A DNA stretch of 64,000 bases from an uncultured Candidatus Saccharibacteria bacterium. GTDB taxonomy: Bacteria; Patescibacteriota; Minisyncoccia; Phycocordibacterales; JACNGX01. Below the pieces are notes generated by a model that saw nothing but the letters and a program-made list of their open reading frames with translations, was not told the DNA's origin and searched no databases. How positions within the stretch are numbered: position 1 is the stretch's first letter; every line of letters starts with the position of its first letter. This document shows positions 3,550 to 62,277 of the stretch, in pieces. The translations under genes and the position numbers were made by a program. Where the stretch lies: contig CAZULS010000002.1 of the NCBI GenBank assembly GCA_964621395.1, positions 87,306 through 151,305 of the forward strand, given 5' to 3'.

Positions 3550-3616
3550 TATTTTTTCTCCGGATGAGGTTCTTGTTGACCAAAATCAATATATATTATA
3601 GTATTGTCAATACCAT

Positions 3617-6274: not shown

Positions 6275-6362
6275 GGGTACGAAGTACGAATCAATACGAA
6301 CATACGAAGACAGGGCCTGGAAAAGTAATGTTCGTATGTTCGTACTCGTTCGTAGTTCGTAA
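6275..6362. repeat. A-family palindromic element GGGTACGAAGTACGAATCAATACGAACATACGAAG...TTCGTATGTTCGTACTCGTTCGTAGTTCGTAA
   Basis: Imperfect inverted repeat of TACGAA hexamer arrays. It starts 3 nt after the sufS stop and ends 5 nt before the sufU start. A near-identical copy lies at 6728..6816. Confidence 0.7.
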
Positions 6363-6366
6363 TCAT

Positions 6367-6726
6367 ATGTATAATTTATACCACGAAGAAATTATGGAAC
6401 ATGCGCGCAACCCTCTTCATAAAGGGGTGTGTGAGGACGCGACCCATACACATAAGGGTGTGAATGCAGGATGCGGTGACGAGATTTCTCTTTCTGTGAA
6501 AGTCTCTGACGGTATCATTGAAAGTATGTGCTTTGATGGAGAAGGATGTGCGCTTTCCGTGGCTGCGTGTGATATGCTTTCCGGTGTGGTGAAAGGCAAA
6601 AGGGTGGAGGATGTGCTTTGTATGTCGCCGAAGGACATCTATGATATGCTTGGTGTTTCGGTGACGCCATCGCGAACGAATTGCGCTCTCTTGGGTTTAA
6701 GAACACTGCATAAGATGCTAAGGTAG
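6367..6726 (+). CDS. sufU: Fe-S cluster scaffold SufU/IscU-like (NifU N-terminal domain)
   Basis: GCGDEISLSV...FDGEGCALSVAA cysteine motifs. The longer predicted ORF (6046..) merely translates the upstream A repeat. Confidence 0.8.
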   Translation: MYNLYHEEIMEHARNPLHKGVCEDATHTHKGVNAGCGDEISLSVKVSDGIIESMCFDGEGCALSVAACDMLSGVVKGKRVEDVLCMSPKDIYDMLGVSVTPSRTNCALLGLRTLHKMLR

Positions 6727-6727
6727 C

Positions 6728-6816
6728 GGGTACGAAGTACGAATCAATACGAACATACGAAGACAGGGTCTGGAAAAGTAATGTTCGTATGTTCGTACTC
6801 GTTCGTAGTTCGTAAC
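6728..6816. repeat. A-family palindromic element, second copy
   Basis: Differs from 6275..6362 by one substitution. It fills the sufU-sufC spacer. Confidence 0.7.
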
Positions 6817-6819
6817 TAT

Positions 6820-7563
6820 ATGATTTTTTCTACACACAATATTCATATCACGACAAAGGACGGTACTGAAGTGGTTTCGGGTGTGTCGCTTGAGCTTGAA
6901 AAAGGGAAGTGTGCGGTGCTCATGGGGAAAAACGGATCCGGTAAGAGCTCGTTTGTCCTTGGATGTATGGGTCATCCGCGATATGCCATTACGGAAGGGT
7001 CGGTGCAGGTGAGCGGTATGGAGATAACCACTCTCCCTACACACGAACGCGCACGAAACGGCATGTTTCTTTCTCCGCAAGCATCCCCGGCTATTTCGGG
7101 TGTTGCACTTGGGTCATTTATCCGGTCTGCCGATACCCATCTTCATCCGAAGCATGAGCATACACCACTTGCATTTCATACAGAGCTCACCAAGAAAGCG
7201 ACGGAGGCAGGTTTTGATGCCGAGCTCCTCTCTCGTGGTGTGAATACTGAGCTTTCAGGAGGACAGAAAAAACAAACCGAGATTATACAGCTTCTTGCAC
7301 TTGCACCGAAGGTTGCGCTTCTTGATGAGATTGATTCAGGTGTTGATATTGAAACACTCAATGCCGTATGCGAGAGTATTCGAAAGGCATGTGAAAAGGG
7401 CACGGCAGTTCTCGTGGTAACGCATAATCCGGAAGTGGTGAAGAAACTTTCTCCCAACCGTGTGTACGTTATGGATGGGGGGAGAATCGTTGCTTCAGGT
7501 GATGCTTCGCTTGCGGAGAAAGTGAAAGATGAAGGGTTTGGCGGAGTGGAGGGAGAGACATAA
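6820..7563 (+). CDS. sufC: Fe-S cluster assembly ATPase SufC
   Basis: Walker A GKNGSGKSS, ABC signature LSGGQKK and Walker B LLDEIDSG. The start is at the ATG that follows the repeat. Confidence 0.85.
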   Translation: MIFSTHNIHITTKDGTEVVSGVSLELEKGKCAVLMGKNGSGKSSFVLGCMGHPRYAITEGSVQVSGMEITTLPTHERARNGMFLSPQASPAISGVALGSFIRSADTHLHPKHEHTPLAFHTELTKKATEAGFDAELLSRGVNTELSGGQKKQTEIIQLLALAPKVALLDEIDSGVDIETLNAVCESIRKACEKGTAVLVVTHNPEVVKKLSPNRVYVMDGGRIVASGDASLAEKVKDEGFGGVEGET

Positions 7564-7570
7564 GGGTACG

Positions 7571-7729
7571 CCTAGCCCGTGCCGAGCCACGGTCGGCCTA
7601 GGGAACTACGAACGAGTACGAACATACGAAACGTACCTTTACTGTCATTCCTTGCTTGACCAGGAATCTACAGGGTTATATGACCCACTCACTTCTGCCT
7701 GGACGGGATGACAAAAGAGAGGGATGACA
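7571..7729. repeat. Composite repeat: family-I hairpin (GCCTAGCCCGTGCCGAGCCACGGTCGGCCTAGGG), A-left arm, B-type hairpins
   Basis: The family-I sequence recurs at 46259..46291. The B hairpins are GTCATTCCTTGCTTGACCAGGAATC and others. Confidence 0.6.
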
Positions 7730-13480: not shown

Positions 13481-13720
13481 TTACGAATTGCGAATAACGC
13501 GAATATACGAATATTGCAGCTAGAAACTAAATATCTGTCATCCTGAACTTGATTCAGGATCCAGAAAAAGTGAAGATTCCGGATCAAGTCCGGAATGACA
13601 CTAAACAAGATTCTCATTTTATACGCTACGAAATATAATACGGTGTATAGAAATCGTAAGCCCGAAGCAGGCAGGTCACCCATTCGTATATTCGTATTAT
13701 AATTCGTAATTCGCATATTG
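13481..13720. repeat. Composite A/B element: A-type arms (ACGAATTGCGAATAACGCGAATATACGAAT ... ATTCGTATATTCGTATTATAATTCGTAATTCGC) enclosing B-type hairpins
   Basis: Inverted A-type arms flank GTCATCCTGAACTTGATTCAGGATC and GATTCCGGATCAAGTCCGGAATGACA. Confidence 0.6.
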
Positions 13721-19639: not shown

Positions 19640-19795
19640 CATACAATGAGAAGTTAGAAATTAGAAAATAGAAGTTAGAAAAGGTGCGCTACGCGCGCCT
19701 ACCTTGTCATTCCGCACTTGATGCGGAATCTTGCCGCGCGAAGCCTTGGCGGAGTGGGGACGCCGCGCCTACCTTGTCATTCCGGCCTCTTTATC
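19640..19795. repeat. Repeat cluster: TTAGAAGT/TTAGAAA array (family J), two B-type GTCATTCCGCACTTGATGCGGAATC copies, family-H motif GCGAAGCCTTGGCGGAGTGGGG
   Basis: Family H also occurs at 3035..3060 and, reverse-complemented, at 46524..46550. Confidence 0.55.
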
Positions 19796-19883
19796 CCGCT
19801 CAGTTTTCTTCTTTCTTGAAAACTGAGGCGTGGGCGAGCCGGAACCCAGCTTTTTTCTTTACAACAAAAAAAGACCTACTCAC

Positions 19884-27122: not shown

Positions 27123-27304
27123 CTGTCATCCCGCACTTGATGCGGGATCCAAGCAGACATAATTATGTAGGTAAAACTCTGGATTCCAGGGTCTTGTCAG
27201 GAATGACACATCCTAGGGTTATTCGAAAACCAAGATTGAGTTTTGGTATGAATACCAAAGCTCAACCTTGGTTTTAAGATCCCGCATCAAGTGCGGGATG
27301 ACAG
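27123..27304. repeat. Large B-family element with terminal inverted repeats CTGTCATCCCGCACTTGATGCGGGATC ... GATCCCGCATCAAGTGCGGGATGACAG and internal AAAACCAAG...CCTTGGTTTT palindrome
   Basis: 27 bp TIRs flank ~130 bp. A MITE-like organisation. Confidence 0.65.
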
Positions 27305-29054: not shown

Positions 29055-29070
29055 GAAGAGAAAATTAATT

Positions 29071-29257
29071 AGAGCCTGTTCGTAATCTCATGTCGTGCGT
29101 AATGCATCATATACCGAGCGAAAATCGTGAAAAGTGTTGATGGAGTACTGTCGTACTTCGAGACACTTTAAGCGATTTACAGCCGGTATATGGCGCATTA
29201 AGCCGACAAGGACATGTTCTTCTTCGTTCAATTCCGTTGAGATTATGAACAGGCTCT
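29071..29257. mobile_element. MITE family D copy 1 (~187 bp, 20 bp perfect TIRs AGAGCCTGTTCGTAATCTCA / TGAGATTATGAACAGGCTCT)
   Basis: The internal sequence carries a second inverted repeat TATACCGAGCGAAAATCG / CGATTTACAGCCGGTATA. Tandem copy at 29325..29512, third copy at 58698..58884, degenerate inverted copy at ~49497..49725. Confidence 0.7.
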
Positions 29258-29324
29258 TAGATGACACACTCAGTATATATGAGAATACCGATTGACTGAA
29301 AGTTTTTTTTGTTCTCTGACTTTA

Positions 29325-29512
29325 AGAGCCTGTTCACAATCTCATGTCGTGCGTGACACACTCATATACCGAGCGAAAATCGTGAAAAGTGTCGAAGGAG
29401 TACTGTCGTACTTCGAGACGCTTTGAGCGATTTGCAGCCGGTATATGAGTGTGTCAGCCGGCAAGGATATATCTTTCTTTCTCCTATTCCGTTGAGATTG
29501 TGAACAGGCTCT
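29325..29512. mobile_element. MITE family D copy 2
   Basis: ~85-90% identical to copy 1, with the same TIRs AGAGCCTGTTCACAATCTCA / TGAGATTGTGAACAGGCTCT. Confidence 0.7.
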
Positions 29513-29570
29513 AAGAGGAGAAAAAAGTGAGCGCGGCGGGGCAAAGCCCCGCCGCGCTAAGTGGTAAAAT

Positions 29571-31057: not shown

Positions 31058-31163
31058 TGTCATCCCGCACTTGATCCTACATTGCAAGCAATCGGATACA
31101 ATGCGGGATCTCGAGAGAGTTGTTTCATAACGTTTAGATCCCGCATCAAGTGCGGGATGACAG
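31058..31163. repeat. B-family MITE-like element (TIRs TTGTCATCCCGCACTTGAT ... GATCCCGCATCAAGTGCGGGATGACAG)
   Basis: Immediately upstream of the PBP2 start. The GTG that begins the predicted ORF at 31150 lies inside the right TIR. Confidence 0.65.
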
Positions 31164-31173
31164 AAAACACACC

Positions 31174-34161: not shown

Positions 34162-34272
34162 GGGTACAAAGTACGAATATATACGAACATACGAAGATAG
34201 GGTTGTTTCGGAAAATGAATTGCAGGGTATACATTGTGTTCGTATGTTCGTACTCGTTCGTAGTTCGTAACC
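34162..34272. repeat. A-family element (GGGTACAAAGTACGAATATATACGAACATACGAAG ... TTCGTATGTTCGTACTCGTTCGTAGTTCGTAACC)
   Basis: Same architecture as 6275..6362, with a longer central spacer. Nearly identical to 36041..36152. Confidence 0.65.
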
Positions 34273-36040: not shown

Positions 36041-36152
36041 GGGGTACGAAGTACGAACGTGTACGAACATACGAAGATTGAGTTGTTTCGGAAAATGAAT
36101 TGCAGGGTATACATTGTGTTCGTATGTTCGTATTTATTCGTAGTTCGTAATA
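36041..36152. repeat. A-family element, near-duplicate of 34162..34272
   Basis: GGGGGTACGAAGTACGAACGTGTACGAACATACGAAG...TTCGTATGTTCGTATTTATTCGTAGTTCGTAATAACC. Confidence 0.65.
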
Positions 36153-38797: not shown

Positions 38798-38926
38798 TGT
38801 CATCCCCCACTCCGTGCCGAGCACTTTTTTCGCTTTGGCGAAAATGGTGCTTGGTGATGCGGGATCTAAGTAGAAGTAAGTGGTTGTTTTGATTTTTAGA
38901 TTCCCGTTCAAGCCGGGAATGACAGC
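38798..38926. repeat. B-family element (GTCATCCCCCACTCCGTGCCGAGCAC...GGTGCTTGGTGATGCGGGATC and GATTCCCGTTCAAGCCGGGAATGACAG)
   Basis: Shares its internal sequence with the 17312 and 18200 copies. Confidence 0.55.
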
Positions 38927-38988
38927 TGATGGATTGATTATTGGGTCATTGGATTTTATTTGTGATTTGGTGCTTGCGATTTGGGATT

Positions 38989-39441
38989 TTAACTGAAGGA
39001 TTCCTCAACCGCCTTTTTCACATCGTTACCGTCCGCGCGGCCCTTGAGATCTTTCATCATCATACCCATCAGCTTGTTGGCCTCGGAGCTGTCGGAAATG
39101 CCAAGCTCTGCTTTTTTCGCTTTCACTGCCGCCACAATCTCTTCCATACTCAATTGCTCGGGGAGATACTCTTGCAAAATCGCCAATTCGCGCTCTTCGC
39201 TTTCGGCAAGCTCCGGGCGACCGCCGTTTCGGAATTGTTCGGCTGCATCTTTGCGTTGCTTTGCCAGGCGGGTCACAACCGCGAGCGCCATTTCGTCGTC
39301 TACTGTGTCGGAAGGCTTTTTCTTCCGGGCAACAAGCTCATTGGTAAACGCTGATGTAATAGAGCGAAGCGTTGTGAGCCGTTCGCTGTCCTTAGCGCGC
39401 ATGGCCGTTTTGATGTCTTCTTTGATGGTGTCGTATAGCAT
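38989..39441 (-). CDS. GatB/YqeY domain protein
   Basis: 150 aa with the YqeY-like helical sequence (LVARKKKPSDTVDDEMALAVVTRLAKQRKDAAEQF). Confidence 0.7.
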   Translation of the reverse strand: MLYDTIKEDIKTAMRAKDSERLTTLRSITSAFTNELVARKKKPSDTVDDEMALAVVTRLAKQRKDAAEQFRNGGRPELAESEERELAILQEYLPEQLSMEEIVAAVKAKKAELGISDSSEANKLMGMMMKDLKGRADGNDVKKAVEESFS

Positions 39442-39576: not shown

Positions 39577-39604
39577 TTGACAAAATATTTCATATGTGTA
39601 TAAT
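39577..39604 (+). promoter_or_regulatory. Consensus sigma-70 promoter TTGACA-N16-TATAAT
   Basis: Both hexamers match the consensus exactly. It is separated from the next CDS (40028) by ~420 nt that contain an intrinsic terminator. Confidence 0.6.
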
Positions 39605-39610
39605 AGACCA

Positions 39611-39972
39611 CAGAAATGAAATTCGTGAGTAAAAGGATATGTGCGGGTGTTATGATTACTTGCTGATATTACGATTTGATATTGCAGTAGTACGATTATC
39701 CGTTGCGTGCCAGGACCGGCAGTCTTCCGGACTTTTCCTCCTCGTACACGGGAAAGACATGTTCTTTTACTCACCCAGTTTTTGTTGTAGTACCTTTTAC
39801 TCTCACCAATGACGCCAACGGTCAGGTGATACAGAGAACAGTTGGGCTCATGCGCTGTACGTTTCGCGGTACGCATGAGTATAACAGCGATAGGCTGTGC
39901 TTGGATAAGCGACCCCTAAGCACAAGCCGAAAAGAGCGGTCGCCCCCGGGTTTTCCACCCGGGGTTCTTTTT
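39611..39972 (+). ncRNA. Candidate ~360 nt non-coding RNA (unknown class) bounded by a consensus promoter and an intrinsic terminator
   Basis: No credible ORF: the longest ATG-initiated ORF is 16 codons, and the 110/120 aa ORFs in the track run through the terminator or lie antisense. It ends at CCCCGGGT-TTTCC-ACCCGGGG-TTCTTTTTT. It contains long internal hairpins, e.g. CTCATGCGCTGTACG...CGGTACGCATGAG. Confidence 0.4.
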
Positions 39973-40027
39973 TATTGGTGTGTAAATACTTGCCCAAGTA
40001 TCGTATATTGCATATACTGCATAGCGT

Positions 40028-40564
40028 ATGGCTGATGAATTGATTGATATATACGACGAGCACAATGAGCCGACAGGGGTGCAAGAGATGAAAAGCGTCG
40101 CGCACCGTGATGGTTTGTGGCATCGAGCGGCTCATGTGTGGATGTACACTAAGAAAGGAGAAATACTCCTTCAGTTGCGTTCCATGGATAAAGAACTGCA
40201 CCCTGGGAAGTGGGATATTTCTGTGGGGGGGCATATCGGTGCTGGAGAAGATGTTGACAAGGCGGCACTGCGAGAAATAAAAGAAGAGATTGGCATGGAG
40301 GTAAGCATGGAGCAGCTTTCCTACTGGAAGACAGTGAAGAAATCTTCGAAACATACGTATCACAATAATGAATTTGATTACGTCTATTTTTTTCTCTTAA
40401 GAGAAGATCAGGAGTTTAATTTCAATGATGGAGAAGTAACCGATGTACGGTTAATACACGTTGACAAACTGGAAGAAGAAATAAAAAGCGACAATGAAGA
40501 CTATGTTCCTCATGGACAATACTGGTTTGACGTCATTGAAGAAGTACGAAAAAGAATTTCTTAA
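40028..40564 (+). CDS. NUDIX hydrolase
   Basis: Nudix box GGHIGAGEDVDKAALREIKEEIG. Confidence 0.8.
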   Translation: MADELIDIYDEHNEPTGVQEMKSVAHRDGLWHRAAHVWMYTKKGEILLQLRSMDKELHPGKWDISVGGHIGAGEDVDKAALREIKEEIGMEVSMEQLSYWKTVKKSSKHTYHNNEFDYVYFFLLREDQEFNFNDGEVTDVRLIHVDKLEEEIKSDNEDYVPHGQYWFDVIEEVRKRIS

Positions 40565-40598: not shown

Positions 40599-42425
40599 AT
40601 GTTATCCAACGACATTCGCACAACATTCCTCAATTTTTTTGAAAAGCGCGGGCACGCTATTGTGCCTTCGGCATCTGTCGTACCGGAGAATGACCCGTCG
40701 GTGCTTTTTACCACTGCCGGCATGCAGCCCTTAGTGCCGTATCTTCTCGGGGAGAGGCATCCGAGCGGTACGCGCATTGCCAATGTGCAGAAGTGTGTCC
40801 GCACGGGGGATATTGAAGAGGTGGGAGATAAAACACACGATACCTTCTTTGAGATGCTGGGGAATTGGTCGCTTGGCGATTATTTTAAGGATGATGCGAT
40901 TACCTGGAGCTACGAACTCCTCACGAGCACGGAGGAAGGGTTTGGTTTGGATCCGGAGCGTTTGTATATTACCGTCTTTGCGGGGAACTCTGACGCGCCA
41001 CGTGATGAGGAGGCGGCAGCGGTGTGGAAAAAGCTCGGTGTGCCCGAACACCGCATCTATTATTTGGAAGACAATTGGTGGAGCCCGGGAGAGAGCGGTC
41101 CGTGTGGTCCGGATTCGGAAATGTTTTATGATATTACCCCCGAAGGATTGGGTGATTTGAGCCACGAAGAATTCTTGGCGGCTGATGATGCACAGAAGGT
41201 GGTGGAGATTTGGAATGACGTCTTCATGGAATATGAGAAGAAAGACGAGAAGGTGATTGGGAAACTCTCGCAGAACAATGTCGATACCGGTGCCGGTCTT
41301 GAACGCTTGGCAATGGTACTGCAGGGGACAGACAATATCTTTGATACGGATCTTTTTGCGCCGATTGCCGCATCGATCCGTGAGAAAGCGGAGAAAGAGG
41401 ATGAGCGCGCGATGCGTATTGTGGCCGATCATATCCGCACGGCTGTCTTTTTGATTGAAGCGGGGGTGCGCCCGGGCAATACCGATCAGGGATATATTTT
41501 GCGCCGATTGCTTCGCAGGGCAGTGCGCTATGGAGATGTACTTGGTTTGGAACACGGCGCGCTTGTTGATATTGCCGGCGCTGCTCTCGGCTTGTATATG
41601 GATGTGTATCCGGAGCTTGCCAAGGCACGTGAGGTGATTGCAGAAGAGATAGGAAAGGAGGAGGAGAAGTTTAGAGCAACGCTCGCGCAGGGAATGAAAG
41701 AGTTTGAGAAACGATCAGTGAATGTTATTGTCGGAACACTTGCATTGGATAATGAGGAAAACAAAAAAAATAAGACTGAAAGTGTAAACTATCTCGCAGG
41801 GAAACAAGTGTTTGATTTGTATCAAACATACGGCTTCCCCATTGAACTTACACGAGAAATTGCCCATGAAAGAGGTTTGGAGATTGATGAGGATGGGTTT
41901 CGTGCAGAAATGAAAAAACATCAAGAAAAATCACGCACCGCGGCGGAAGGGAAGTTTAAGGGTGGATTGGGGGGCGACAACGAAAAGACGCGCGCGCTTC
42001 ACACGGCGACACACCTTCTTTTGGCCGCTCTGCGCAAAGAACTCGGCGAAGACGTGCATCAAGCTGGCTCCAATATCACCGAGGAGCGGCTGCGCTTTGA
42101 TTTTACCTATCCGGAAAAGGTGGAACGCGATGTGCTTGATCGTGTTGAGGCTTTTGTGAATGATGTGATTTCGCGGGATGTGGAAGTGTGCGTGGAAGAA
42201 ATGCCAAAAGAGGAAGCGAAAAAAGGCGGTGTGGAGGGAAGTTTCTGGGAGAAATATCCCGACACGGTGAAGGTCTATAGCATTGCACAGGATGGTGCTG
42301 TGTATTCTCGCGAATTGTGTGGCGGTCCGCATGTGGAGCGCACGGGTGGCATGGGCACATTCAGAATCAAAAAAGAAGAATCCTCATCTGCCGGTGTGCG
42401 CCGTATTAAGGCGGAGCTTGAATAG
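40599..42425 (+). CDS. alaS: alanyl-tRNA synthetase, truncated form lacking C-terminal C-Ala domain
   Basis: Catalytic core FTTAGMQP...GNWSLGDYFK and editing-domain HxxxH / CGGPHV motifs. Only 608 aa. Confidence 0.85.
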   Translation: MLSNDIRTTFLNFFEKRGHAIVPSASVVPENDPSVLFTTAGMQPLVPYLLGERHPSGTRIANVQKCVRTGDIEEVGDKTHDTFFEMLGNWSLGDYFKDDAITWSYELLTSTEEGFGLDPERLYITVFAGNSDAPRDEEAAAVWKKLGVPEHRIYYLEDNWWSPGESGPCGPDSEMFYDITPEGLGDLSHEEFLAADDAQKVVEIWNDVFMEYEKKDEKVIGKLSQNNVDTGAGLERLAMVLQGTDNIFDTDLFAPIAASIREKAEKEDERAMRIVADHIRTAVFLIEAGVRPGNTDQGYILRRLLRRAVRYGDVLGLEHGALVDIAGAALGLYMDVYPELAKAREVIAEEIGKEEEKFRATLAQGMKEFEKRSVNVIVGTLALDNEENKKNKTESVNYLAGKQVFDLYQTYGFPIELTREIAHERGLEIDEDGFRAEMKKHQEKSRTAAEGKFKGGLGGDNEKTRALHTATHLLLAALRKELGEDVHQAGSNITEERLRFDFTYPEKVERDVLDRVEAFVNDVISRDVEVCVEEMPKEEAKKGGVEGSFWEKYPDTVKVYSIAQDGAVYSRELCGGPHVERTGGMGTFRIKKEESSSAGVRRIKAELE

Positions 42426-43510: not shown

Positions 43511-44725
43511 ATGCCGCTTTTCTCTCGTCACTCACAAAAGGATGTTGAACTTGTGCTTGTATATGATATCGGCAGTGCTTCGGTGGGCGGTGCGCTTGTT
43601 CTTTTTGCTCCCGAAAAAAAGCCGAAGATTGTGTACAGCGTGAGACATGATATGGTATTTCAAAAAAATCTCAACGCGGCACGCATGGAGCAATCGATGT
43701 ATAAAGCCGTTGTATCTGTTTCAGAAGATTTGGTAGTGAGCGGCATTCCACATTTGCGTTTTACCACATTCGGTGCATTACGTCCGAAGAAAGCTTTCTG
43801 CTCTCTTGCGTCTCCGTGGATTGCGTCGCAGACCAGGAGTATTCACGTGGCATTTGATCGACCGCGGAAAATTCGTCAAGGAGACATTGTGAATCGTGTT
43901 GTACAAGAACGAAAGGCCTTTCTTGAAAGTGAGGATGTGAAAGAGCTTATCGGAAAAGACGAGCACATGATTATTGAGGAGAAGGTTATGCGAGTGCTTT
44001 TAAACGGATATGAAACCTCCCGACTTGAGAGCACTGATATTCGTACCATGGATATAAGTGCGGTGTTCTCCGTGGCGCCTCTTGGAGTTGTGCAGAATAT
44101 TTCCGATGACATACAAAAATCATTTGCTTCCTGTGAGGTATCGTTCCATTCGTTTTCCACTGTCCTTTTCAATGCCTTGCGCGACGTGACCGAAGAGAAA
44201 GAACGCGACTTTATCATGATTGATATTTCGGGCGAGGTCAGCGATGTCTCAGTGGTCAATGACATGAATCTTGTTGAGACGGTAACATTCCCCGTGGGAA
44301 AAAAGACGATTATTCGCCACATTGCTGAATCGGCGGGTATTGGCACGGAAGAGGCGTTGTCGTACATGCATCTTTCCCGTGAAGGGGAGATGACCGGCCA
44401 TACAAAAGAGAAGATAACAAAGGCGATTCAGAGTGCTCGTGATATGTGGTATCGCTCGTATGAACACGCTCTCACCGACCTTGCTGACACACACATGCTT
44501 TCTCATACGATGTACTTCACGTGTGATTCCGACGTAAAAGCATGGTTCCATGATGTGATTGATGATGCGGAAATGATTCGCTTTGGTGCTGAGCGCGATG
44601 AGAGTATCGTGCACGGTGTTGACCCGCTGTATTTGAGGGGGCGATGTGATATGGGGAGAGACATTGAGCCGGACGTGTTTCTTATGACCGGTGCGATTTG
44701 TGCACAGAAGGTTCTCATGCCGTAA
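43511..44725 (+). CDS. actin-like ATPase fold protein (FtsA/PilM-like), hypothetical
   Basis: Phosphate-1-like LVYDIGSASVGG and phosphate-2-like IMIDISGEVSDVSVV motifs of the ASKHA superfamily. Confidence 0.5.
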   Translation: MPLFSRHSQKDVELVLVYDIGSASVGGALVLFAPEKKPKIVYSVRHDMVFQKNLNAARMEQSMYKAVVSVSEDLVVSGIPHLRFTTFGALRPKKAFCSLASPWIASQTRSIHVAFDRPRKIRQGDIVNRVVQERKAFLESEDVKELIGKDEHMIIEEKVMRVLLNGYETSRLESTDIRTMDISAVFSVAPLGVVQNISDDIQKSFASCEVSFHSFSTVLFNALRDVTEEKERDFIMIDISGEVSDVSVVNDMNLVETVTFPVGKKTIIRHIAESAGIGTEEALSYMHLSREGEMTGHTKEKITKAIQSARDMWYRSYEHALTDLADTHMLSHTMYFTCDSDVKAWFHDVIDDAEMIRFGAERDESIVHGVDPLYLRGRCDMGRDIEPDVFLMTGAICAQKVLMP

Positions 44726-44777
44726 GTACCGACGTGATATACTAAAAGAGAACCTTTCTCATATCCCATACATACAT

Positions 44778-46238
44778 ATGCAGCGACACACATTCCATGA
44801 TATTCGTCCGAGGAGAGGGCAGACACAAAAGCCCAAGACCAAGGCGCCGATACAAAAAAGAAGGAGTGCGCCCCTCTCTCGTGCAAAAAAAGAAACTCCC
44901 ACAGCCCCCGTGCCTGCCGAGAGCGATTTCTTTTCATATGTAAAAGGTGAGAGAAAAAAATCTGAGACGAAGAAAAAAACACCACCCCTTGCACCGGTGC
45001 CCCCGCGCAAGCCCCTTTTTGATTCCAAGGAATTTACTCCTGTCGGTGCCGGGGGGCGCAAGGGGGGAGGTGCTCTTTGGTGGATAGGGACCGGTGTTGT
45101 CGTTGTTGTGGCGATTGTGCTTCTGGACATGTTTGCCGGTGCGACGGTGACCATCACTCCGCGACAAGAAACCGTATTCATTGACAACACATTTGCCGCT
45201 GCCGAGAAAATTGAGGAGGGAAGCGCGCAGCCGATTATTCCGTACCAAACGGCTGTGCTTTCAGTGGAAAAAGAACAGAACGTGCCTGCGGCGGGGGAAG
45301 AAGAAGTGGCGTATCGAGCAAGCGGACGCATCGTTGTGTACAATGCATATTCAGGAGCCGACCAAAGACTTGTGAAGCGCACGCGATTTGAAGACGGTGA
45401 GGGACGTATATATCGTATTGATGAATCAATTGTGGTGCCGGGGATGACAGAAATCGACGGAGAAGAGATTCCGGGATCAATCGAAGTGACGGTCTATGCC
45501 GACGAGCCGGGAGAAGAATACAATATCGGACTGTCTGATTTTACCGTTCCGGGTTTTAAAGATTCAGGATTGACAGAGCAGTATGAGAGTTTTTACGGAC
45601 GAAGTAAAACTCCCATGGAGGGAGGTTTTATCGGGACAATTAAAGTGCCGGAAGAAAAGGATCTTGCCTCGGCTCGGGCTGTGCTCGAATCAGATATTAC
45701 CCAAGCGCTTCAAGAGCAGCTTGAAACAGATGTGCCGGAAGGCTACGGAATTGTAGAGGGGAGTGAGCATATTCGTTTTGAGCATAGTGATCCGGTAGAG
45801 GTGAACGACAAAGAGGTTCGCCTTACGAGCAAGGGCTTTTTGCAAGTTGCCATTGTTGATGAGCGTGCACTCGCACAATTTATTGCACAGCAAAATGTGC
45901 TTGAATACACGGGGGAGGATGTCTTTCTCTTGAATGGCGAGGATGTATCGGTATCGAGTGAGCGCAGTGTGGTCTCTTTGGCGGAGAGTGAAGAAGAGCA
46001 ATTTACCATCACCCTTTCGGGATCGGCGCATGTGGTGTGGGATATTGATGCCTATGCCGTTCGCAACGACCTTCTCGGGCTTGAGCGAAGTATGTTTGAT
46101 ACGGAAATGACTGCGTATCTCGATATTACCGATGCGACGGCATCAATCCGCCCATTTTGGAAGAGCGCTTTCCCTGAAGAGCCGGAAGATATTCGCATTG
46201 TGCAGATGATCGGCGGGGAGAAGGTGGAAGATGAGTGA
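44778..46238 (+). CDS. hypothetical single-pass membrane protein with Pro/Lys-rich cytoplasmic N-terminus and large extracytoplasmic domain
   Basis: K/R/P-rich N-terminal 100 aa, one TM helix (WWIGTGVVVVVAIVLL) and ~380 aa of acidic extracytoplasmic sequence. Its 5' end overlaps the upstream actin-like gene, so the two are probably co-transcribed. Confidence 0.5.
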   Translation: MQRHTFHDIRPRRGQTQKPKTKAPIQKRRSAPLSRAKKETPTAPVPAESDFFSYVKGERKKSETKKKTPPLAPVPPRKPLFDSKEFTPVGAGGRKGGGALWWIGTGVVVVVAIVLLDMFAGATVTITPRQETVFIDNTFAAAEKIEEGSAQPIIPYQTAVLSVEKEQNVPAAGEEEVAYRASGRIVVYNAYSGADQRLVKRTRFEDGEGRIYRIDESIVVPGMTEIDGEEIPGSIEVTVYADEPGEEYNIGLSDFTVPGFKDSGLTEQYESFYGRSKTPMEGGFIGTIKVPEEKDLASARAVLESDITQALQEQLETDVPEGYGIVEGSEHIRFEHSDPVEVNDKEVRLTSKGFLQVAIVDERALAQFIAQQNVLEYTGEDVFLLNGEDVSVSSERSVVSLAESEEEQFTITLSGSAHVVWDIDAYAVRNDLLGLERSMFDTEMTAYLDITDATASIRPFWKSAFPEEPEDIRIVQMIGGEKVEDE

Positions 46239-58677: not shown

Positions 58678-58697
58678 TCGATCAATTTTTCTTTCTT

Positions 58698-58884
58698 AGA
58701 GTCTGTTCACAATCTCATGTCGTGCGTGATATGCCCATATGCCGAGCGAAAATCGTGAAAAACGGTGATGGAGTACTCTCGTACTTTGAGACGTTTTGAG
58801 CGATTTGCAGCCGGTATATGGGCATATCAGCCGACAAGGACAATTTTTATTCATTCAATTCCGTTGAGATTATGAACAGGCTCT
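58698..58884. mobile_element. MITE family D copy 3 (TIRs AGAGTCTGTTCACAATCTCA / TGAGATTATGAACAGGCTCT)
   Basis: ~85% identical to 29071..29257. Its right TIR supplies the in-frame ATG at 58872 upstream of the acyltransferase gene. Confidence 0.7.
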
Positions 58885-58889
58885 TACAT

Positions 58890-60488
58890 ATGAAACAGCG
58901 TCTCAAAGACGTGTGGTGGACCGTTATTCCATGGATACTCCAAACAATCGTGTGGATTCCCGCGCAGATTATTCTGCACTTCTTCCTTCGCCTTCGTGTA
59001 GAAGGATATAAACGGATCAAGCACATTCGCGGACCGGTTATTTTCGTATCCAATCATACAAGCTACTGGGATCCGATTATGATTCCGGCGGCGTTGCCAC
59101 TCTTTTCTCGATTTTTCCCAATGATGTATGTGGCACGTGAGCGCAATTATTACAGACGTGCCAAACACTTTATCGGTGCGACATCGTTTAAGGTATGGGG
59201 GGCGCATCCGGCACACGGCGGACTGTGTGATTATGCTCGCTCACTCGATGACCATGAACGGTTTCTAAACCAAGGAAGAAGTGTGTGCATGTTTCCTGAA
59301 GGGACGCTACCGGAAGAGGAAGACAGCATCCAACCTTTCAAAGGAGGCATTGGCTATTTGGTATGTCATACAAAAGCAACGATTATTCCTGTCTCCATTA
59401 CAGGGATGTTTTCTGTAACAGCAAAAGATTTCTTCAGCAGGAAACGTCGTGCCACACTCACATTCGGCGAGCCGCTTACCAACAACCCGCTCTGCGTCGT
59501 TGCCAAGGGGGAAACACCCGATGTGGAGTGTTACAAAAAAACCGCCGAAAAGATTAGAGAAGAATTAAGCGTTCTTTTTTCAATTGGTTACAATACGATG
59601 CACGATTATCTTCCCGAACAAGAATATCATCATGCTTTCGCTAGACCATTTCGCGCTATTGGTCGTTTTATACTCAATCATTTACATCTTGTTCCGGGTA
59701 TGAATAATATAGCGCGAAAGACAAACAGAGGCGCGCGAGAAGTACTGGAGAACAAAACAACGCACCAGGCCCTGGAAGTGCTGTATCGGAAAGGGGACAC
59801 AGGGAAAAAAGAAACATTTCTGGGAAACATATTTCGTTCACTATGGTTTTTTACCGACAATGCGAAAGGAGTCAGAAACCGTCTTAGAATTGTAAAAAAT
59901 GGAATTGTGAGAGAGCTCGTAAACATTCATAGCGATGAATGTCACAATAATACTGTGCACATGCTCAGTATTGCGTCTGGATCGGCGCGCGCGGTGCTGG
60001 AAGCGATACAGCGAGCAAGAGAAATGAATGTCGAAAAGGACATTCATGTAACCTTTTTAGATAAAAGTCCTCAGGCAATTTCATACAGTCGCACATTGGC
60101 ACAATCGGTATGTGATGAAGATGTTCTCAAAAAAACACACATGCAATGGGTGACTGACACTGCAAGCAATTTTACAAAGTACGCAGATGAGGGGTCTTTA
60201 GATATTATTGAAATGGTCGGCCTGCTTGACTACTTCGATGACGAAAAAGCGCAACGTCTTTTTGAAAAAGCGTACCGCTACTTACGTTCAGGAGGCGTGT
60301 TCATTACTGCCAATATTGACTATAATAAAGAGTATGCATTCGTGAACAACTTTGTCGATTGGCGTATGATATATCGTTCATCGCACGAGTTAGCAGCGTT
60401 AGCGCGTCGTGCTGGCTTTAATGCACAGTACATGCGCGTATATACAGAACCTCTCGGAGTTCACAATGTGCTCATCGTGAGGAAATAA
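58890..60488 (+). CDS. fusion protein: N-terminal 1-acyl-sn-glycerol-3-phosphate acyltransferase-like (PlsC/LPLAT) domain + C-terminal class I SAM-dependent methyltransferase-like domain
   Basis: HxxxxD box NHTSYWD and the FPEGT box in the first ~200 aa. The C-terminal ~200 aa have Rossmann-like methyltransferase motifs (SIASGSARAVLE, FLDKSPQAI, DIIEMVGLLDY, LRSGGVFITAN). Confidence 0.55.
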   Translation: MKQRLKDVWWTVIPWILQTIVWIPAQIILHFFLRLRVEGYKRIKHIRGPVIFVSNHTSYWDPIMIPAALPLFSRFFPMMYVARERNYYRRAKHFIGATSFKVWGAHPAHGGLCDYARSLDDHERFLNQGRSVCMFPEGTLPEEEDSIQPFKGGIGYLVCHTKATIIPVSITGMFSVTAKDFFSRKRRATLTFGEPLTNNPLCVVAKGETPDVECYKKTAEKIREELSVLFSIGYNTMHDYLPEQEYHHAFARPFRAIGRFILNHLHLVPGMNNIARKTNRGAREVLENKTTHQALEVLYRKGDTGKKETFLGNIFRSLWFFTDNAKGVRNRLRIVKNGIVRELVNIHSDECHNNTVHMLSIASGSARAVLEAIQRAREMNVEKDIHVTFLDKSPQAISYSRTLAQSVCDEDVLKKTHMQWVTDTASNFTKYADEGSLDIIEMVGLLDYFDDEKAQRLFEKAYRYLRSGGVFITANIDYNKEYAFVNNFVDWRMIYRSSHELAALARRAGFNAQYMRVYTEPLGVHNVLIVRK

Positions 60489-62140: not shown

Positions 62141-62277
62141 TTGTCATCCCGCACTTGATGCGGGGTCTAAGCGTTACGAAACAACTCTTTCGAGATCCCG
62201 CATCAAGTGCGGGATGACAGGAAAAGAGAGTATTAAGAGCCTGTTCGTATGTTCGTACTGTTTTGTACTTCGTACCC
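62141..62277. repeat. B-family MITE-like element (75 bp, TIRs TGTCATCCCGCACTTGATGCGGGGTCT / AGATCCCGCATCAAGTGCGGGATGACA) + AGAGCCTGTTCG + A-family right half
   Basis: The TTG that starts the predicted trpS ORF lies inside the A repeat. The real start is 62314. Confidence 0.65.

What the first reader, a model, noticed from the sequence alone, without database searches (positions are those of the whole stretch)
39577..39972. Orphan consensus promoter, ~360 nt transcript without an ORF, intrinsic terminator: candidate novel structured ncRNA or long cis-regulatory leader of the NUDIX gene
A textbook sigma-70 promoter (TTGACA-N16-TATAAT, both hexamers matching the consensus exactly) is followed by ~360 nt. 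The longest ATG-initiated ORF in that stretch is 16 codons. The stretch ends in a clean rho-independent terminator (CCCCGGGT-TTTCC-ACCCGGGG + TTCTTTTTT) about 55 nt upstream of the NUDIX hydrolase start. The interior has extended hairpins (e.g. CTCATGCGCTGTACGTTTCGCGGTACGCATGAG) and C/G-rich stems. I see none of the signature motifs of the known housekeeping RNAs: no tmRNA tRNA-like domain, no RNase P CR-I/CR-V, and not the SRP domain IV motifs. It could be a new sRNA, or a riboswitch/attenuator leader that controls the NUDIX gene, with the terminator as the OFF state.
Basis: seen in the sequence. Interest (0 to 1): 0.72.

Follow-up and report, generated by a model that had tools for sequence, protein, structure and literature searches.

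The report
New modular structured RNA gene
This stretch is a real, separately transcribed, non-coding structured RNA gene that matches no known RNA family, is confined to a narrow group of tiny "candidate phyla radiation" bacteria, is built from interchangeable folded modules, and is not a control leader for the neighbouring NUDIX gene.

Summary
The promoter (TTGACA-16-TATAAT, 39577-39604), the terminator (39944-39973) and the internal hairpin are all present. The promoter is the only 12/12 match in 64 kb. The claim "no ORF over 16 codons" is wrong: there is a 57-codon ATG ORF. No reading frame is conserved in relatives, so the region is non-coding.

I recovered eight versions of this locus from related Parcubacteria-like metagenome contigs. 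All keep the same promoter and a GC-rich terminator, and the seven close relatives also keep an 18-nt linker (CCAGUUUYUUGUAGUACC). The folded domains on either side of the linker are swapped as modules between close relatives.

Where domains are shared, their helices show compensatory changes: 11 of 53 pairs in the 5' domain and 4 of 42 in the 3' domain. Rfam 15 gives no match even at E<=10.

A second conserved promoter (P2) follows the terminator. It drives NUDIX, or alaS directly, or another gene, depending on the lineage. The RNA is therefore not a NUDIX leader.

Best reading: a lineage-specific, highly expressed, independent structured ncRNA. It probably acts in trans as a protein-binding scaffold or RNP. 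Its function is unknown.

The parts
39577..39604 (+). P1 promoter: -35 TTGACA (39577-39582), 16-nt spacer, -10 TATAAT (39599-39604)
   Evidence: the only exact match in the window, with 0.02 expected. TTGACAA and the -10 are invariant or nearly so in 8 homologous loci.
39610..39624 (+). Predicted 5' leader. The transcription start is inferred at about 39610-39612. The conserved initial motif is CAGA(A/U)U.
   Evidence: The start is inferred from its distance to the -10. CAGA is conserved after the -10 in 7 of 8 loci. The 5' end has not been mapped.
39625..39774 (+). 5' domain, 'type A'. A long closing stem (GUGAGUAAAAGGAUAUGU / ACAUG..UUCUUUUACUCAC) leads to a three-way junction with two arms. 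The unpaired GGAAAG in the junction is conserved.
   Evidence: Alignment A2 of window, L087, L098 and L101 gives 53 pairs, 96.7% of cells paired, and 11 pairs with changes on both sides. Slid controls give 0-3, and 0 of 500 shuffles reach the observed values. G-U pairs kept in all four sequences fit the + strand only.
39775..39799 (+). Conserved linker CCAGUUUUUGUUGUAGUACCUUUUA. The family core is CCAGUUUYUUGUAGUACC.
   Evidence: It is present after the closing stem in the seven close relatives, whatever modules flank it; L100 has only ACCCCUUUAUACC there. Predicted unpaired probability is 0.27-0.89, against 0.33-0.38 for the whole RNAs.
39800..39943 (+). The domain is optional in the family.
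   Evidence: It is shared by window, L090, L101 and (partly) L098. It is absent from L087, L092 and L100, and is different in L082. Alignment A3 gives 42 pairs, 98.4% paired, and 4 pairs with compensatory changes. The first 52 nt are identical in window and L090.
39944..39973 (+). Intrinsic terminator: 8-bp stem with 7 G-C pairs, 5-nt loop, then UUCUUUUUU
   Evidence: All full-length homologs end in a GC-rich hairpin plus U tract, but with four unrelated stem sequences.
39986..40020 (+). P2, the boundary element, which is not part of the RNA. It comprises the palindrome ATACTTGCCCAAGTAT over a -35-like TTGCCC (39990-39995), a -10-like TATACT (40013-40018), and the invariant 16-mer ATATTGCATATACTGC (40005-40020).
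   Evidence: It precedes NUDIX, alaS or other genes in different lineages.

Best explanation
Positions about 39610-39973 (+) encode an independently transcribed structured non-coding RNA of about 360 nt. It runs from a consensus sigma-70 promoter to an intrinsic terminator. It belongs to a previously undescribed RNA family confined to a narrow clade of Parcubacteria/Minisyncoccia-like (CPR) bacteria.

The family has a constant frame: the promoter, a short 5' leader (CAGAU/A), a closing helix, the single-stranded linker CCAGUUUYUUGUAGUACC (seven of the eight versions; L100 has a shorter tail) and a terminator. Multi-helix modules are inserted or exchanged within this frame. The 5' domain comes in types A, B and C. 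The 3' domain is optional.

Shown here:
- The unit is conserved with its transcription signals.
- Its helices are under selection for pairing.
- It is non-coding.
- It is uncoupled from any particular downstream gene.

Inferred: it is an abundant, stable, trans-acting RNA. The conserved unpaired elements (the linker, the junction GGAAAG, and the loops of 3'-domain hairpin H1) are its functional contact sites. These most likely serve a protein partner (RNP or scaffold, or sequestration) rather than mRNA base pairing. The swapped helical modules would then serve as scaffold or stabilising elements.
For: Transcription signals:
- The promoter is the only 12/12 match in 64 kb.
- Its core is invariant in 8 loci, although the surrounding spacer diverges.
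- Terminator hairpins are always present but have unrelated sequences, which indicates selection for function and not for sequence.

Structure:
- Fold z-scores are -4.2 for the window and -5.9 for L082.
- The 5' domain has 11 of 53 pairs with double compensatory changes and 96.7% of cells paired. Slid controls give 0-3.
- Some changes are found within lineages that lack any downstream ORF in the unit. Examples are the L087 A-U to G-C change at columns 98/128 and the L098 G-C to A-U change at columns 27/87.
- The 3' domain has 4 of 42 compensatory pairs and 98.4% paired.
- G-U pairs fixed in all sequences fit only the + strand.

Non-coding:
- ORFs are broken and change frame between homologs. 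Similarity is equal in all six frames.

Independence from neighbours:
- The RNA+P2 unit precedes NUDIX-alaS (window, L082), alaS directly (L087, L092, L101), or another ORF (L090).
- The closing helix differs in sequence between types: GUGAG/CUCAC, GAGG/CCUC, GGAGAC/GUCUCC and GGGGAA/UUCCCC. In all but L100 it is followed by the same linker.

Large, multi-junction conserved folds are typical of protein-binding or RNP RNAs and not of seed-type sRNAs. This last point rests on established knowledge and is used as inference.
Against: - No expression data exist, and the 5' and 3' ends are predicted only.
- There are only 8 distinct sequences, with 3-4 per module, so covariation statistics are limited. 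They could not be tested with R-scape.
- No partner protein or target was identified.
- The linker is only moderately accessible in silico: 0.27 in L087 and 0.39 in L092.
- Wholesale replacement of the 5' domain between close relatives is hard to reconcile with a single specific protein partner.
- In L101 the RNA runs without a terminator into a Shine-Dalgarno sequence and a 103-codon ORF. At least there it could serve as a 5' UTR.
Confidence: 0.7

Rival explanations
1. The RNA is a cis-acting leader (attenuator, riboswitch or T-box-like) that controls read-through into the downstream alaS operon. NUDIX would be a recent insertion into that operon.
For: - The RNA has the same orientation as alaS and lies upstream of it in 5 of 6 lineages where the downstream gene is visible.
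- The type-A domain is a three-way junction with conserved junction nucleotides, which is aptamer-like.
- In L101 the transcript continues into an ORF.
- alaS is T-box regulated in Firmicutes (established knowledge).
Against: - The conserved promoter-like element P2 lies between the terminator and the gene in every lineage.
- Four unrelated terminators are combined with different upstream modules, so no conserved antiterminator exists.
- The whole 5' 'sensor' domain is replaced between close relatives.
- There is no T-box or riboswitch hit at E<=10.
- The apparent alternative partner for the closing stem (CUUUUACUCUCAC, 39794-39806) is not compensated in L101. It belongs to hairpin H1 of the 3' domain, which also occurs without a type-A stem in L090.
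Confidence: 0.12
2. The region is a hairpin-rich, rapidly turning-over spacer made of remnants of mobile or repeat elements, sitting behind a constitutive promoter. It has no RNA-level function of its own.
For: - These genomes are full of intergenic palindromic repeats.
- The body is unalignable between window and L082 although the flanking genes are 83-93% identical.
- Modules come and go.
Against: - Helices are kept through compensatory changes.
- None of the modules is repeated elsewhere in the window or in 1 Mb of related loci.
- The 3' domain is 100% identical over 52 nt between lineages whose yqeY genes are 85% identical.
- The promoter, linker and terminator function are conserved.
Confidence: 0.1
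3. The RNA is a highly diverged housekeeping RNA (RNase P RNA, 6S, SRP or tmRNA) that Rfam models miss. This is reported for RNase P RNA in CPR genomes.
For: - The window copy (about 360 nt) has the size of RNase P RNA or tmRNA.
- It has a stable-RNA-type promoter.
- 10 of 35 circular CPR genomes needed sub-threshold searches to find RNase P RNA (PMC8172020).
- GGGAAAGAC and ACAGAGAACAGUUGGGCU weakly resemble CR-I and CR-V.
Against: - None of these families hits even at about 11 bits / E<=10 on either strand, in the window or in 7 homologs.
- ARAGORN finds no tmRNA.
- The CR-V-like segment lies in the optional 3' domain, which is absent from L087, L092 and L100.
- Family members of 168-250 nt are too small for RNase P RNA.
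- The two segments cannot form P4.
- The fold has no 6S-type central bubble.
Confidence: 0.03
4. The unit is a small-protein gene, for example the 57-codon ATG ORF at 39639-39812.
For: ORFs of 57, 110 and 120 codons exist in the window.
Against: - The 57-codon ORF is cut to 17 codons in L087 and 10 codons in L098.
- Stop-to-stop frames break and shift between homologs, and similarity is frame-independent.
- There is no Pfam match.
Confidence: 0.02

Closest known systems
Large structured bacterial ncRNAs of unknown or RNP function found by comparative genomics (raiA motif RNA, OLE, ROOL, GOLLD; Breaker-lab classes)
   Same: - It is an independent transcription unit.
- It is several hundred nucleotides long.
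- It has multi-junction folds supported by covariation.
- It has no ORF.
- It has a lineage-restricted distribution.
- Its biochemical role is unknown.
   Different: - It shows no sequence or structure match to any of them in Rfam 15.
- It is much narrower phylogenetically: one clade with YqeY at 65% identity or more.
- Whole domains are exchanged between near relatives, which is not described for those classes as far as I know (my own knowledge).
6S RNA / Ms1-type abundant regulatory RNAs
   Same: - It has a strong housekeeping-type promoter.
- It is expected to be an abundant, stable, highly base-paired RNA.
- Its primary sequence is poorly conserved.
   Different: - It has no closing stem, central bubble and terminal stem architecture. 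The fold is a three-way junction followed by a linker and further hairpins.
- There is no RF00013 hit.
T-box leader of alaS (Firmicutes)
   Same: - It lies upstream of alaS in the same orientation.
- It is 170-420 nt long and structured.
- It ends in an intrinsic terminator.
   Different: - It has no T-box sequence (its GUAGUACC differs from the T-box GGUGGUACC), no specifier loop and no antiterminator.
- A promoter lies between the terminator and the gene.
- Its domains are swapped.
- There is no RF00230 hit.
TIGR arrays / stem-loop guide arrays of CPR bacteria and phages (PMC12045711)
   Same: - It is found in parasitic CPR bacteria.
- It is a series of variable hairpins between conserved short motifs.
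- It has a modular character.
   Different: - It has no tandem repeat units.
- No Nop-domain Tas protein is found among the neighbouring genes that were scanned, and the window holds no ORF longer than 642 aa.
- No arrays are found.
- The helices here are conserved by covariation and are not spacer-like.

Membership tests
Generic bacterial sRNA/ncRNA gene (independent transcription unit) | Own promoter and own intrinsic terminator, both conserved in orthologous loci | tested here: met
   promoter core invariant in 8 loci, and every full-length homolog ends in a GC hairpin plus U tract.
Generic bacterial sRNA/ncRNA gene (independent transcription unit) | No conserved reading frame | tested here: met
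   frames break and shift; the 57-codon ORF is truncated in L087 and L098.
Generic bacterial sRNA/ncRNA gene (independent transcription unit) | Secondary structure maintained by compensatory substitutions | tested here: met
   11 of 53 pairs, against 0-3 in slid controls; 4 of 42 pairs. Only 3-4 sequences per module.
Generic bacterial sRNA/ncRNA gene (independent transcription unit) | Detected as a discrete transcript | not testable with these tools
   No RNA-seq data are accessible.
Any Rfam 15 family | Covariance-model match at or near the gathering score | tested here: not met
   The only hits are terminator-hairpin look-alikes: anti-hemB at 22.7 bits against a gathering score of 49.5, and Spot 42 at 16 against 80.
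Bacterial RNase P RNA | CR-I and CR-V forming P4, presence in every member, and size of about 270 nt or more | tested here: not met
   There is no RF00010/RF00011 hit down to about 11 bits. The CR-V-like segment lies in the optional 3' domain. Members of 168-250 nt exist.
tmRNA | tRNA-like domain and tag reading frame | tested here: not met
   ARAGORN finds none, and Rfam gives no hit.
6S RNA | Long hairpin with a large central bubble flanked by closing and terminal stems | tested here: not met
   The consensus fold is a three-way junction with no 5'-side bubble. There is no RF00013 hit.
T-box riboswitch | Stem I specifier, the T-box sequence in an antiterminator that competes with the terminator, and the gene directly downstream | tested here: not met
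   There is no Rfam hit. Terminators are swapped independently of upstream modules. P2 lies between the terminator and the gene.
Riboswitch/attenuator in general | Conserved mutually exclusive terminator and antiterminator pairing | tested here: not met
   The candidate alternative pairing, 39626-39637 with 39794-39806, is not compensated in L101. That segment is part of hairpin H1, which also occurs in L090 without the type-A stem.
TIGR-Tas / CRISPR-type guide arrays | Tandem repeat-spacer units and an adjacent effector (Tas Nop-domain or Cas) | tested here: not met
   There are no tandem units in the RNA and no arrays in the window. No ORF exceeds 642 aa. The neighbouring genes that matched Pfam are housekeeping genes, while two adjacent large ORFs matched nothing.

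The most novel reading that the evidence does not exclude
The locus is a rapidly diversifying modular RNA. A fixed frame (promoter, closing helix, linker, terminator) carries structured cassettes that are exchanged by recombination between closely related CPR strains. The 5' and 3' modules assort independently, and the RNA type conflicts with the yqeY phylogeny. Such diversifying turnover of an abundant RNA would point to a conflict-related or partner-specific role. Examples are a decoy, an immunity or guide-like RNA, or host-episymbiont recognition. It would not point to housekeeping regulation.
Probability: 0.12. Interest if true: 0.8.

Novelty: new member of a known kind. Interest (0 to 1): 0.55.

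Why it matters
CPR/Patescibacteria have tiny genomes with few recognisable regulators. I found no report of a lineage-specific structured RNA in them (three text searches).

A conserved, probably very abundant RNA of 170-420 nt with covarying multi-helix domains is a concrete candidate for a new RNP or regulatory RNA in these uncultured organisms. Its module swapping between near relatives is an unusual evolutionary pattern for a structured RNA.

The analysis also corrects a tempting mis-annotation. The RNA is not a NUDIX riboswitch, and NUDIX has its own portable promoter/operator (P2).

Tried and rejected
- **Rfam.** I searched at gathering score and at E<=10 on the window, on the RNA alone and on 8 homolog loci. 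Nothing appeared but terminator look-alikes.
- **ARAGORN.** No tmRNA.
- **Synteny with alaS in reference genomes.** I took 80 alaS loci from GTDB species representatives (best 63% identity). nhmmer, blastn and covariance model R1 found no homolog.
- **NUDIX-based synteny.** This gave only one sister species (L082/L083). Its body is unalignable with the window. At first this looked like hypervariability. yqeY-based retrieval later showed it is module replacement.
- **Metagenome scan with the P2 16-mer.** This gave one useful locus (L101) and one unrelated locus (L102).
- **Phage and viral collections.** The phage collection gave no match. Viral-contig hits to the linker 17-mer stay confined to 18-20 nt and occur at about the chance rate (my estimate), so they are not homologs.
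- **Contig breaks next to yqeY.** I suspected population hypervariability. They are explained instead by two multi-copy repeat elements.
- **Alternative pairing of the closing stem** with CUUUUACUCUCAC. Rejected, because it is not compensated in L101 and is part of H1.
- **Pairing of the 5' leader with the linker.** It is present in the window MFE fold but is not maintained in types B and C (read directly).
- **Linker complementarity to 63 translation-start regions in the window.** The best duplex is -15.2 kcal/mol, weaker than the best of shuffled linkers (-18.4 +/- 2.2).
- **Resemblance of the linker to type II-C CRISPR repeats**, and of GUGAGU...UUGUAG to intron boundaries. Rejected: no cas genes, no arrays and no intron models hit, and types B and C lack GUGAG.
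- **Minus-strand GAGGAAAAGUCC as RNase P CR-I.** Rejected: it lies on the wrong strand for the promoter, terminator and G-U pairs, and there is no model hit.
- **Pfam on the inserted ORF of L101 and on the ORFs after P2 in L090 and L100.** Nothing was found.

Full report
**1. What is in the window**

The + strand carries TTGACA-N16-TATAAT at 39577-39604. This is the only exact consensus promoter in the 64-kb window, where 0.02 are expected by chance.

About 340 nt downstream lies an 8-bp, GC-rich hairpin followed by UUCUUUUUU at 39944-39973. It ends 55 nt before the ATG of a NUDIX gene (40028-40564, PF00293). That gene is followed after 34 nt by a short-form alaS (40599-42425). A yqeY gene (38989-39441) runs divergently upstream.

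The interval folds far better than shuffled sequence on the + strand (-127 kcal/mol, z = -4.2). The - strand is less extreme (z = -2.4).

The interval holds an ATG ORF of 57 codons (39639-39812), a TTG ORF of 110 codons, and a 120-codon ORF on the other strand. None has a Pfam match.

**2. Known families**

Rfam 15 finds only two tRNAs in the whole window at gathering score. At E<=10 the interval gives only generic "hairpin + terminator" look-alikes: anti-hemB at 22.7 bits against a gathering score of 49.5, Spot 42 and ylbH. This holds on 701 nt and on the 371-nt RNA alone, where the threshold reaches about 11 bits.

No RNase P, 6S, SRP, tmRNA, T-box, riboswitch or intron model appears. ARAGORN finds no tmRNA. 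The same holds for eight homologous loci.

This negative result matters because CPR RNase P RNAs are known to score below Rfam thresholds (PMC8172020). That rival is dealt with structurally in section 7.

**3. The organism and its relatives**

The alaS product is at most 63% identical to anything in 185,579 species-representative genomes. The best hits are Minisyncoccia, Paceibacterota and other Patescibacteria. None of those 80 loci contains anything similar to the interval.

The NUDIX protein has only one close relative (98%) among 15 billion proteins. Its contigs (L082 from a TARA scaffold, and L083) keep yqeY, NUDIX and alaS.

Alignment of the intergenic regions gave the first surprise. 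The promoter and the 70 nt before NUDIX are nearly identical, but the 290-360 nt between them cannot be aligned. The best local score is 21, against 18.5 +/- 2.2 for shuffles. The flanking genes are 83-93% identical. The L082 body is nevertheless just as strongly folded (z = -5.9).

**4. More homologs resolve the puzzle**

YqeY has a graded series of relatives at 92-65% identity. Their contigs are L087-L100. One metagenome hit to the downstream element added L101. Together these gave eight distinct versions of the locus.

All eight have the same promoter. TTGACAA and the -10 are invariant or nearly so.

After a short leader with a conserved CAGA(A/U)U comes a closing helix that encloses a multi-hairpin 5' domain. 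This domain occurs in at least three unrelated forms:
- Type A: window, L087, L098, L101.
- Type B: L082, L092.
- Type C: L090, which shares its inner part with type B.

Next comes a linker that is conserved in every close relative (all but L100), CCAGUUUYUUGUAGUACC. After it comes one of the following:
- a 3' domain of about 145 nt and three hairpins (window, L090, L098, L101);
- a short CCUCC/GGAGG hairpin module (L087, L092);
- something else (L082).

The unit ends in a GC-rich terminator, which occurs in four unrelated sequences. A reduced version of about 170 nt, with a shorter tail in place of the linker, exists at 65% YqeY identity (L100). At 60% identity the RNA is gone, and yqeY abuts an RNase T gene. 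Covariance model R1, built from type A, finds only the four type-A members in 1.06 Mb of related loci.

**5. It is a structured, non-coding RNA**

In the type-A domain (alignment A2, four sequences), RNAalifold predicts 53 pairs forming a long closing stem and a three-way junction.
- 96.7% of cells are standard pairs.
- 11 pairs show changes on both sides that keep pairing.
- Sliding the 3' partners by 1-3 columns gives 0-3 such pairs and 32-60% pairing.
- None of 500 column shuffles reaches the observed values.

Several compensations distinguish lineages that all lack any ORF in the unit. L087 has A-U to G-C in arm 2, and L098 has G-C to A-U in arm 1. The structure is therefore maintained where the RNA can only act as RNA. 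G-U pairs fixed in all four sequences are compatible only with the + strand.

Its first 52 nt are identical between window and L090.

Between types, the closing helix changes sequence (GUGAG/CUCAC, GAGG/CCUC, GGAGAC/GUCUCC, GGGGAA/UUCCCC), and except in L100 it is followed by the same linker.

Reading frames are not conserved. The 57-codon ORF stops after 17 codons in L087 and after 10 in L098. Stop-free stretches break and change frame between homologs, and translated similarity is the same in all six frames.

**6. It is not a leader of NUDIX**

Immediately after the terminator comes a second element, P2 (39986-40020). It consists of:
- a perfect palindrome, ATACTTGCCCAAGTAT, over a -35-like TTGCCC;
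- 17 nt of spacer;
- a -10-like TATACT, embedded in an invariant 16-mer, ATATTGCATATACTGC.

P2 is better conserved than the proteins around it. It precedes NUDIX in window and L082. In L087, L092 and L101 there is no NUDIX gene and P2 directly precedes alaS. In L090 it precedes a small membrane ORF.

Conversely, the 59%-identical NUDIX gene of L084 has the same P2 but has two tRNA genes upstream, not the RNA.

The four terminator types are combined freely with different upstream modules. The T2 terminator, for example, follows either the short module or the 3' domain. No conserved antiterminator can therefore exist.

The one tempting alternative pairing is the closing-stem 5' strand with CUUUUACUCUCAC at 39794-39806. 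It is not compensated in L101. That segment is the 5' strand of hairpin H1, which also occurs in L090 without a type-A stem.

The only hint of cis function is L101. There, a Shine-Dalgarno sequence and a 103-codon ORF of unknown family are inserted between the 3' domain and the terminator.

**7. Rivals from known RNA classes**

*RNase P RNA.* The weak CR-I-like and CR-V-like strings cannot form P4. The CR-V-like one lies in the optional 3' domain. Family members of 168-250 nt are too small. No model hit appears down to about 11 bits.

*6S RNA.* The fold has no central bubble.

*T-box.* There is no T-box sequence, no specifier and no antiterminator.

*TIGR or CRISPR-type guide arrays*, which occur in CPR bacteria (PMC12045711). 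The RNA has no tandem units. The window has no arrays and no ORF above 642 aa. The nearby genes that matched Pfam are housekeeping genes: PCMT, DHQ synthase, a Na/Ca exchanger, PBP, ribosomal proteins and RpoA. Two neighbouring proteins are of unknown family.

**8. Evolutionary pattern**

Module types do not follow the yqeY tree. L098 carries a type-A RNA, but its yqeY is closest to that of type-B L092 (85% against 76% to the window). L090 and L092 have 89%-identical yqeY genes but different 3' parts. The short 3' module is shared by a type-A and a type-B RNA.

This implies recombination within the unit, with the conserved promoter, linker and P2 as the likely homology arms. That step is inference.

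The many contig ends next to yqeY first suggested population hypervariability. They are explained instead by two multi-copy repeat elements.

**9. How it most likely works**

Shown: an independent, conserved, structured, non-coding transcription unit.

Inferred: the consensus promoter and strong terminator predict an abundant, stable RNA. The size and the multi-junction architecture, with conserved unpaired nucleotides (linker, junction GGAAAG, H1 loop and flanks), fit a protein-binding or RNP-type RNA better than a seed-type sRNA.

A search for linker complementarity at 63 start regions in the window found nothing better than shuffled linkers. The linker is only moderately accessible in silico. 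The partner and the process are unknown.

I put 0.7 on "independent trans-acting structured ncRNA of a new family". Within that, I put roughly 0.3 on the RNP/scaffold mechanism specifically.

**10. Verdict**

The "novel structured ncRNA" reading is supported, and the "NUDIX leader" reading is not.

The element is a new family within a known kind, bacterial structured ncRNA genes. It is notable for its occurrence in CPR bacteria and for its cassette-like module exchange.

Interest is moderate to high for RNA biologists and CPR specialists. It is limited by the narrow distribution, the small number of sequences and the absence of functional clues.

Noticed in passing
window 39986-40020; also L082, L084, L087, L090, L092, L101, L102: P2 is a perfect palindrome (ATACTTGCCCAAGTAT) over a -35-like hexamer, plus an invariant 16-mer ATATTGCATATACTGC that contains TATACT. 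It precedes different genes in different lineages: NUDIX, alaS, a small membrane ORF, and an unrelated gene in L102. It looks like a portable promoter with an operator. It recalls AlaRS autoregulation at a palindrome in E. coli (my own knowledge).
   Followed up: partly
window 6275-6369, 6728-6822, 34162-34270, 36042-36150; partial copies near 7603, 38187, 51946, 57056, 62240, 63564: An intergenic element of about 110 nt with terminal inverted repeats (GGGTACGAAGTACGAA...TTCGTAGTTCGTAAC) occurs in multiple copies. The same element sits right after the yqeY stop codon in L082 and L093-L097, and coincides with contig ends there. It is MITE- or REP-like.
   Followed up: partly
window, at least 15 sites, e.g. 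1417-1447, 13536-13605, 27124-27154, 31127-31167, 38889-38929, 62142-62224: A short REP-like palindromic hairpin, TGTCATYCCGSACTTGATSCGGRATCT, is scattered through intergenic regions on both strands (families D2/D6/D9).
   Followed up: no
window 19774-19844; L091, L093-L098 between yqeY and P1: A second repeat element (CCCGCTCA-hairpin-GGGCGAGCGGGAAT, 110-170 nt) is inserted between yqeY and the RNA promoter in some relatives. One copy lies elsewhere in the window.
   Followed up: partly
window 29069-29264, 29323-29519, 58696-58892: There are three copies (66-89% identical) of a sequence of about 190 nt. Two are in tandem near the histidyl-tRNA-synthetase-like and signal-peptidase-like genes, and one overlaps the start of the ORF at 58818 (D1/D20). 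It may be another non-coding element or a duplicated gene start.
   Followed up: no
L084 3380-3815: Upstream of the NUDIX ortholog lie two tRNA-like genes on the opposite strand, separated by about 280 nt of hairpins. The tRNA 3' end TGGGCGGCACAGGAATCG is duplicated at 3580 and 3741. This is a possible integration scar.
   Followed up: no
L101 9150-9480 (minus strand of the locus): A 103-codon ORF with a good Shine-Dalgarno sequence is inserted between the RNA's 3' domain and a terminator, upstream of P2-alaS. It has no Pfam family. The space between the RNA and alaS seems to be an insertion hot spot: NUDIX, this ORF, and a membrane ORF in L090.
   Followed up: partly
window 43511-46238: Two adjacent large ORFs of 404 and 515 aa, downstream of the alaS/HAD genes, have no Pfam match. 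ORFs of similar size (420 and 484 aa), also without a Pfam match, occupy the same position in L082.
   Followed up: no
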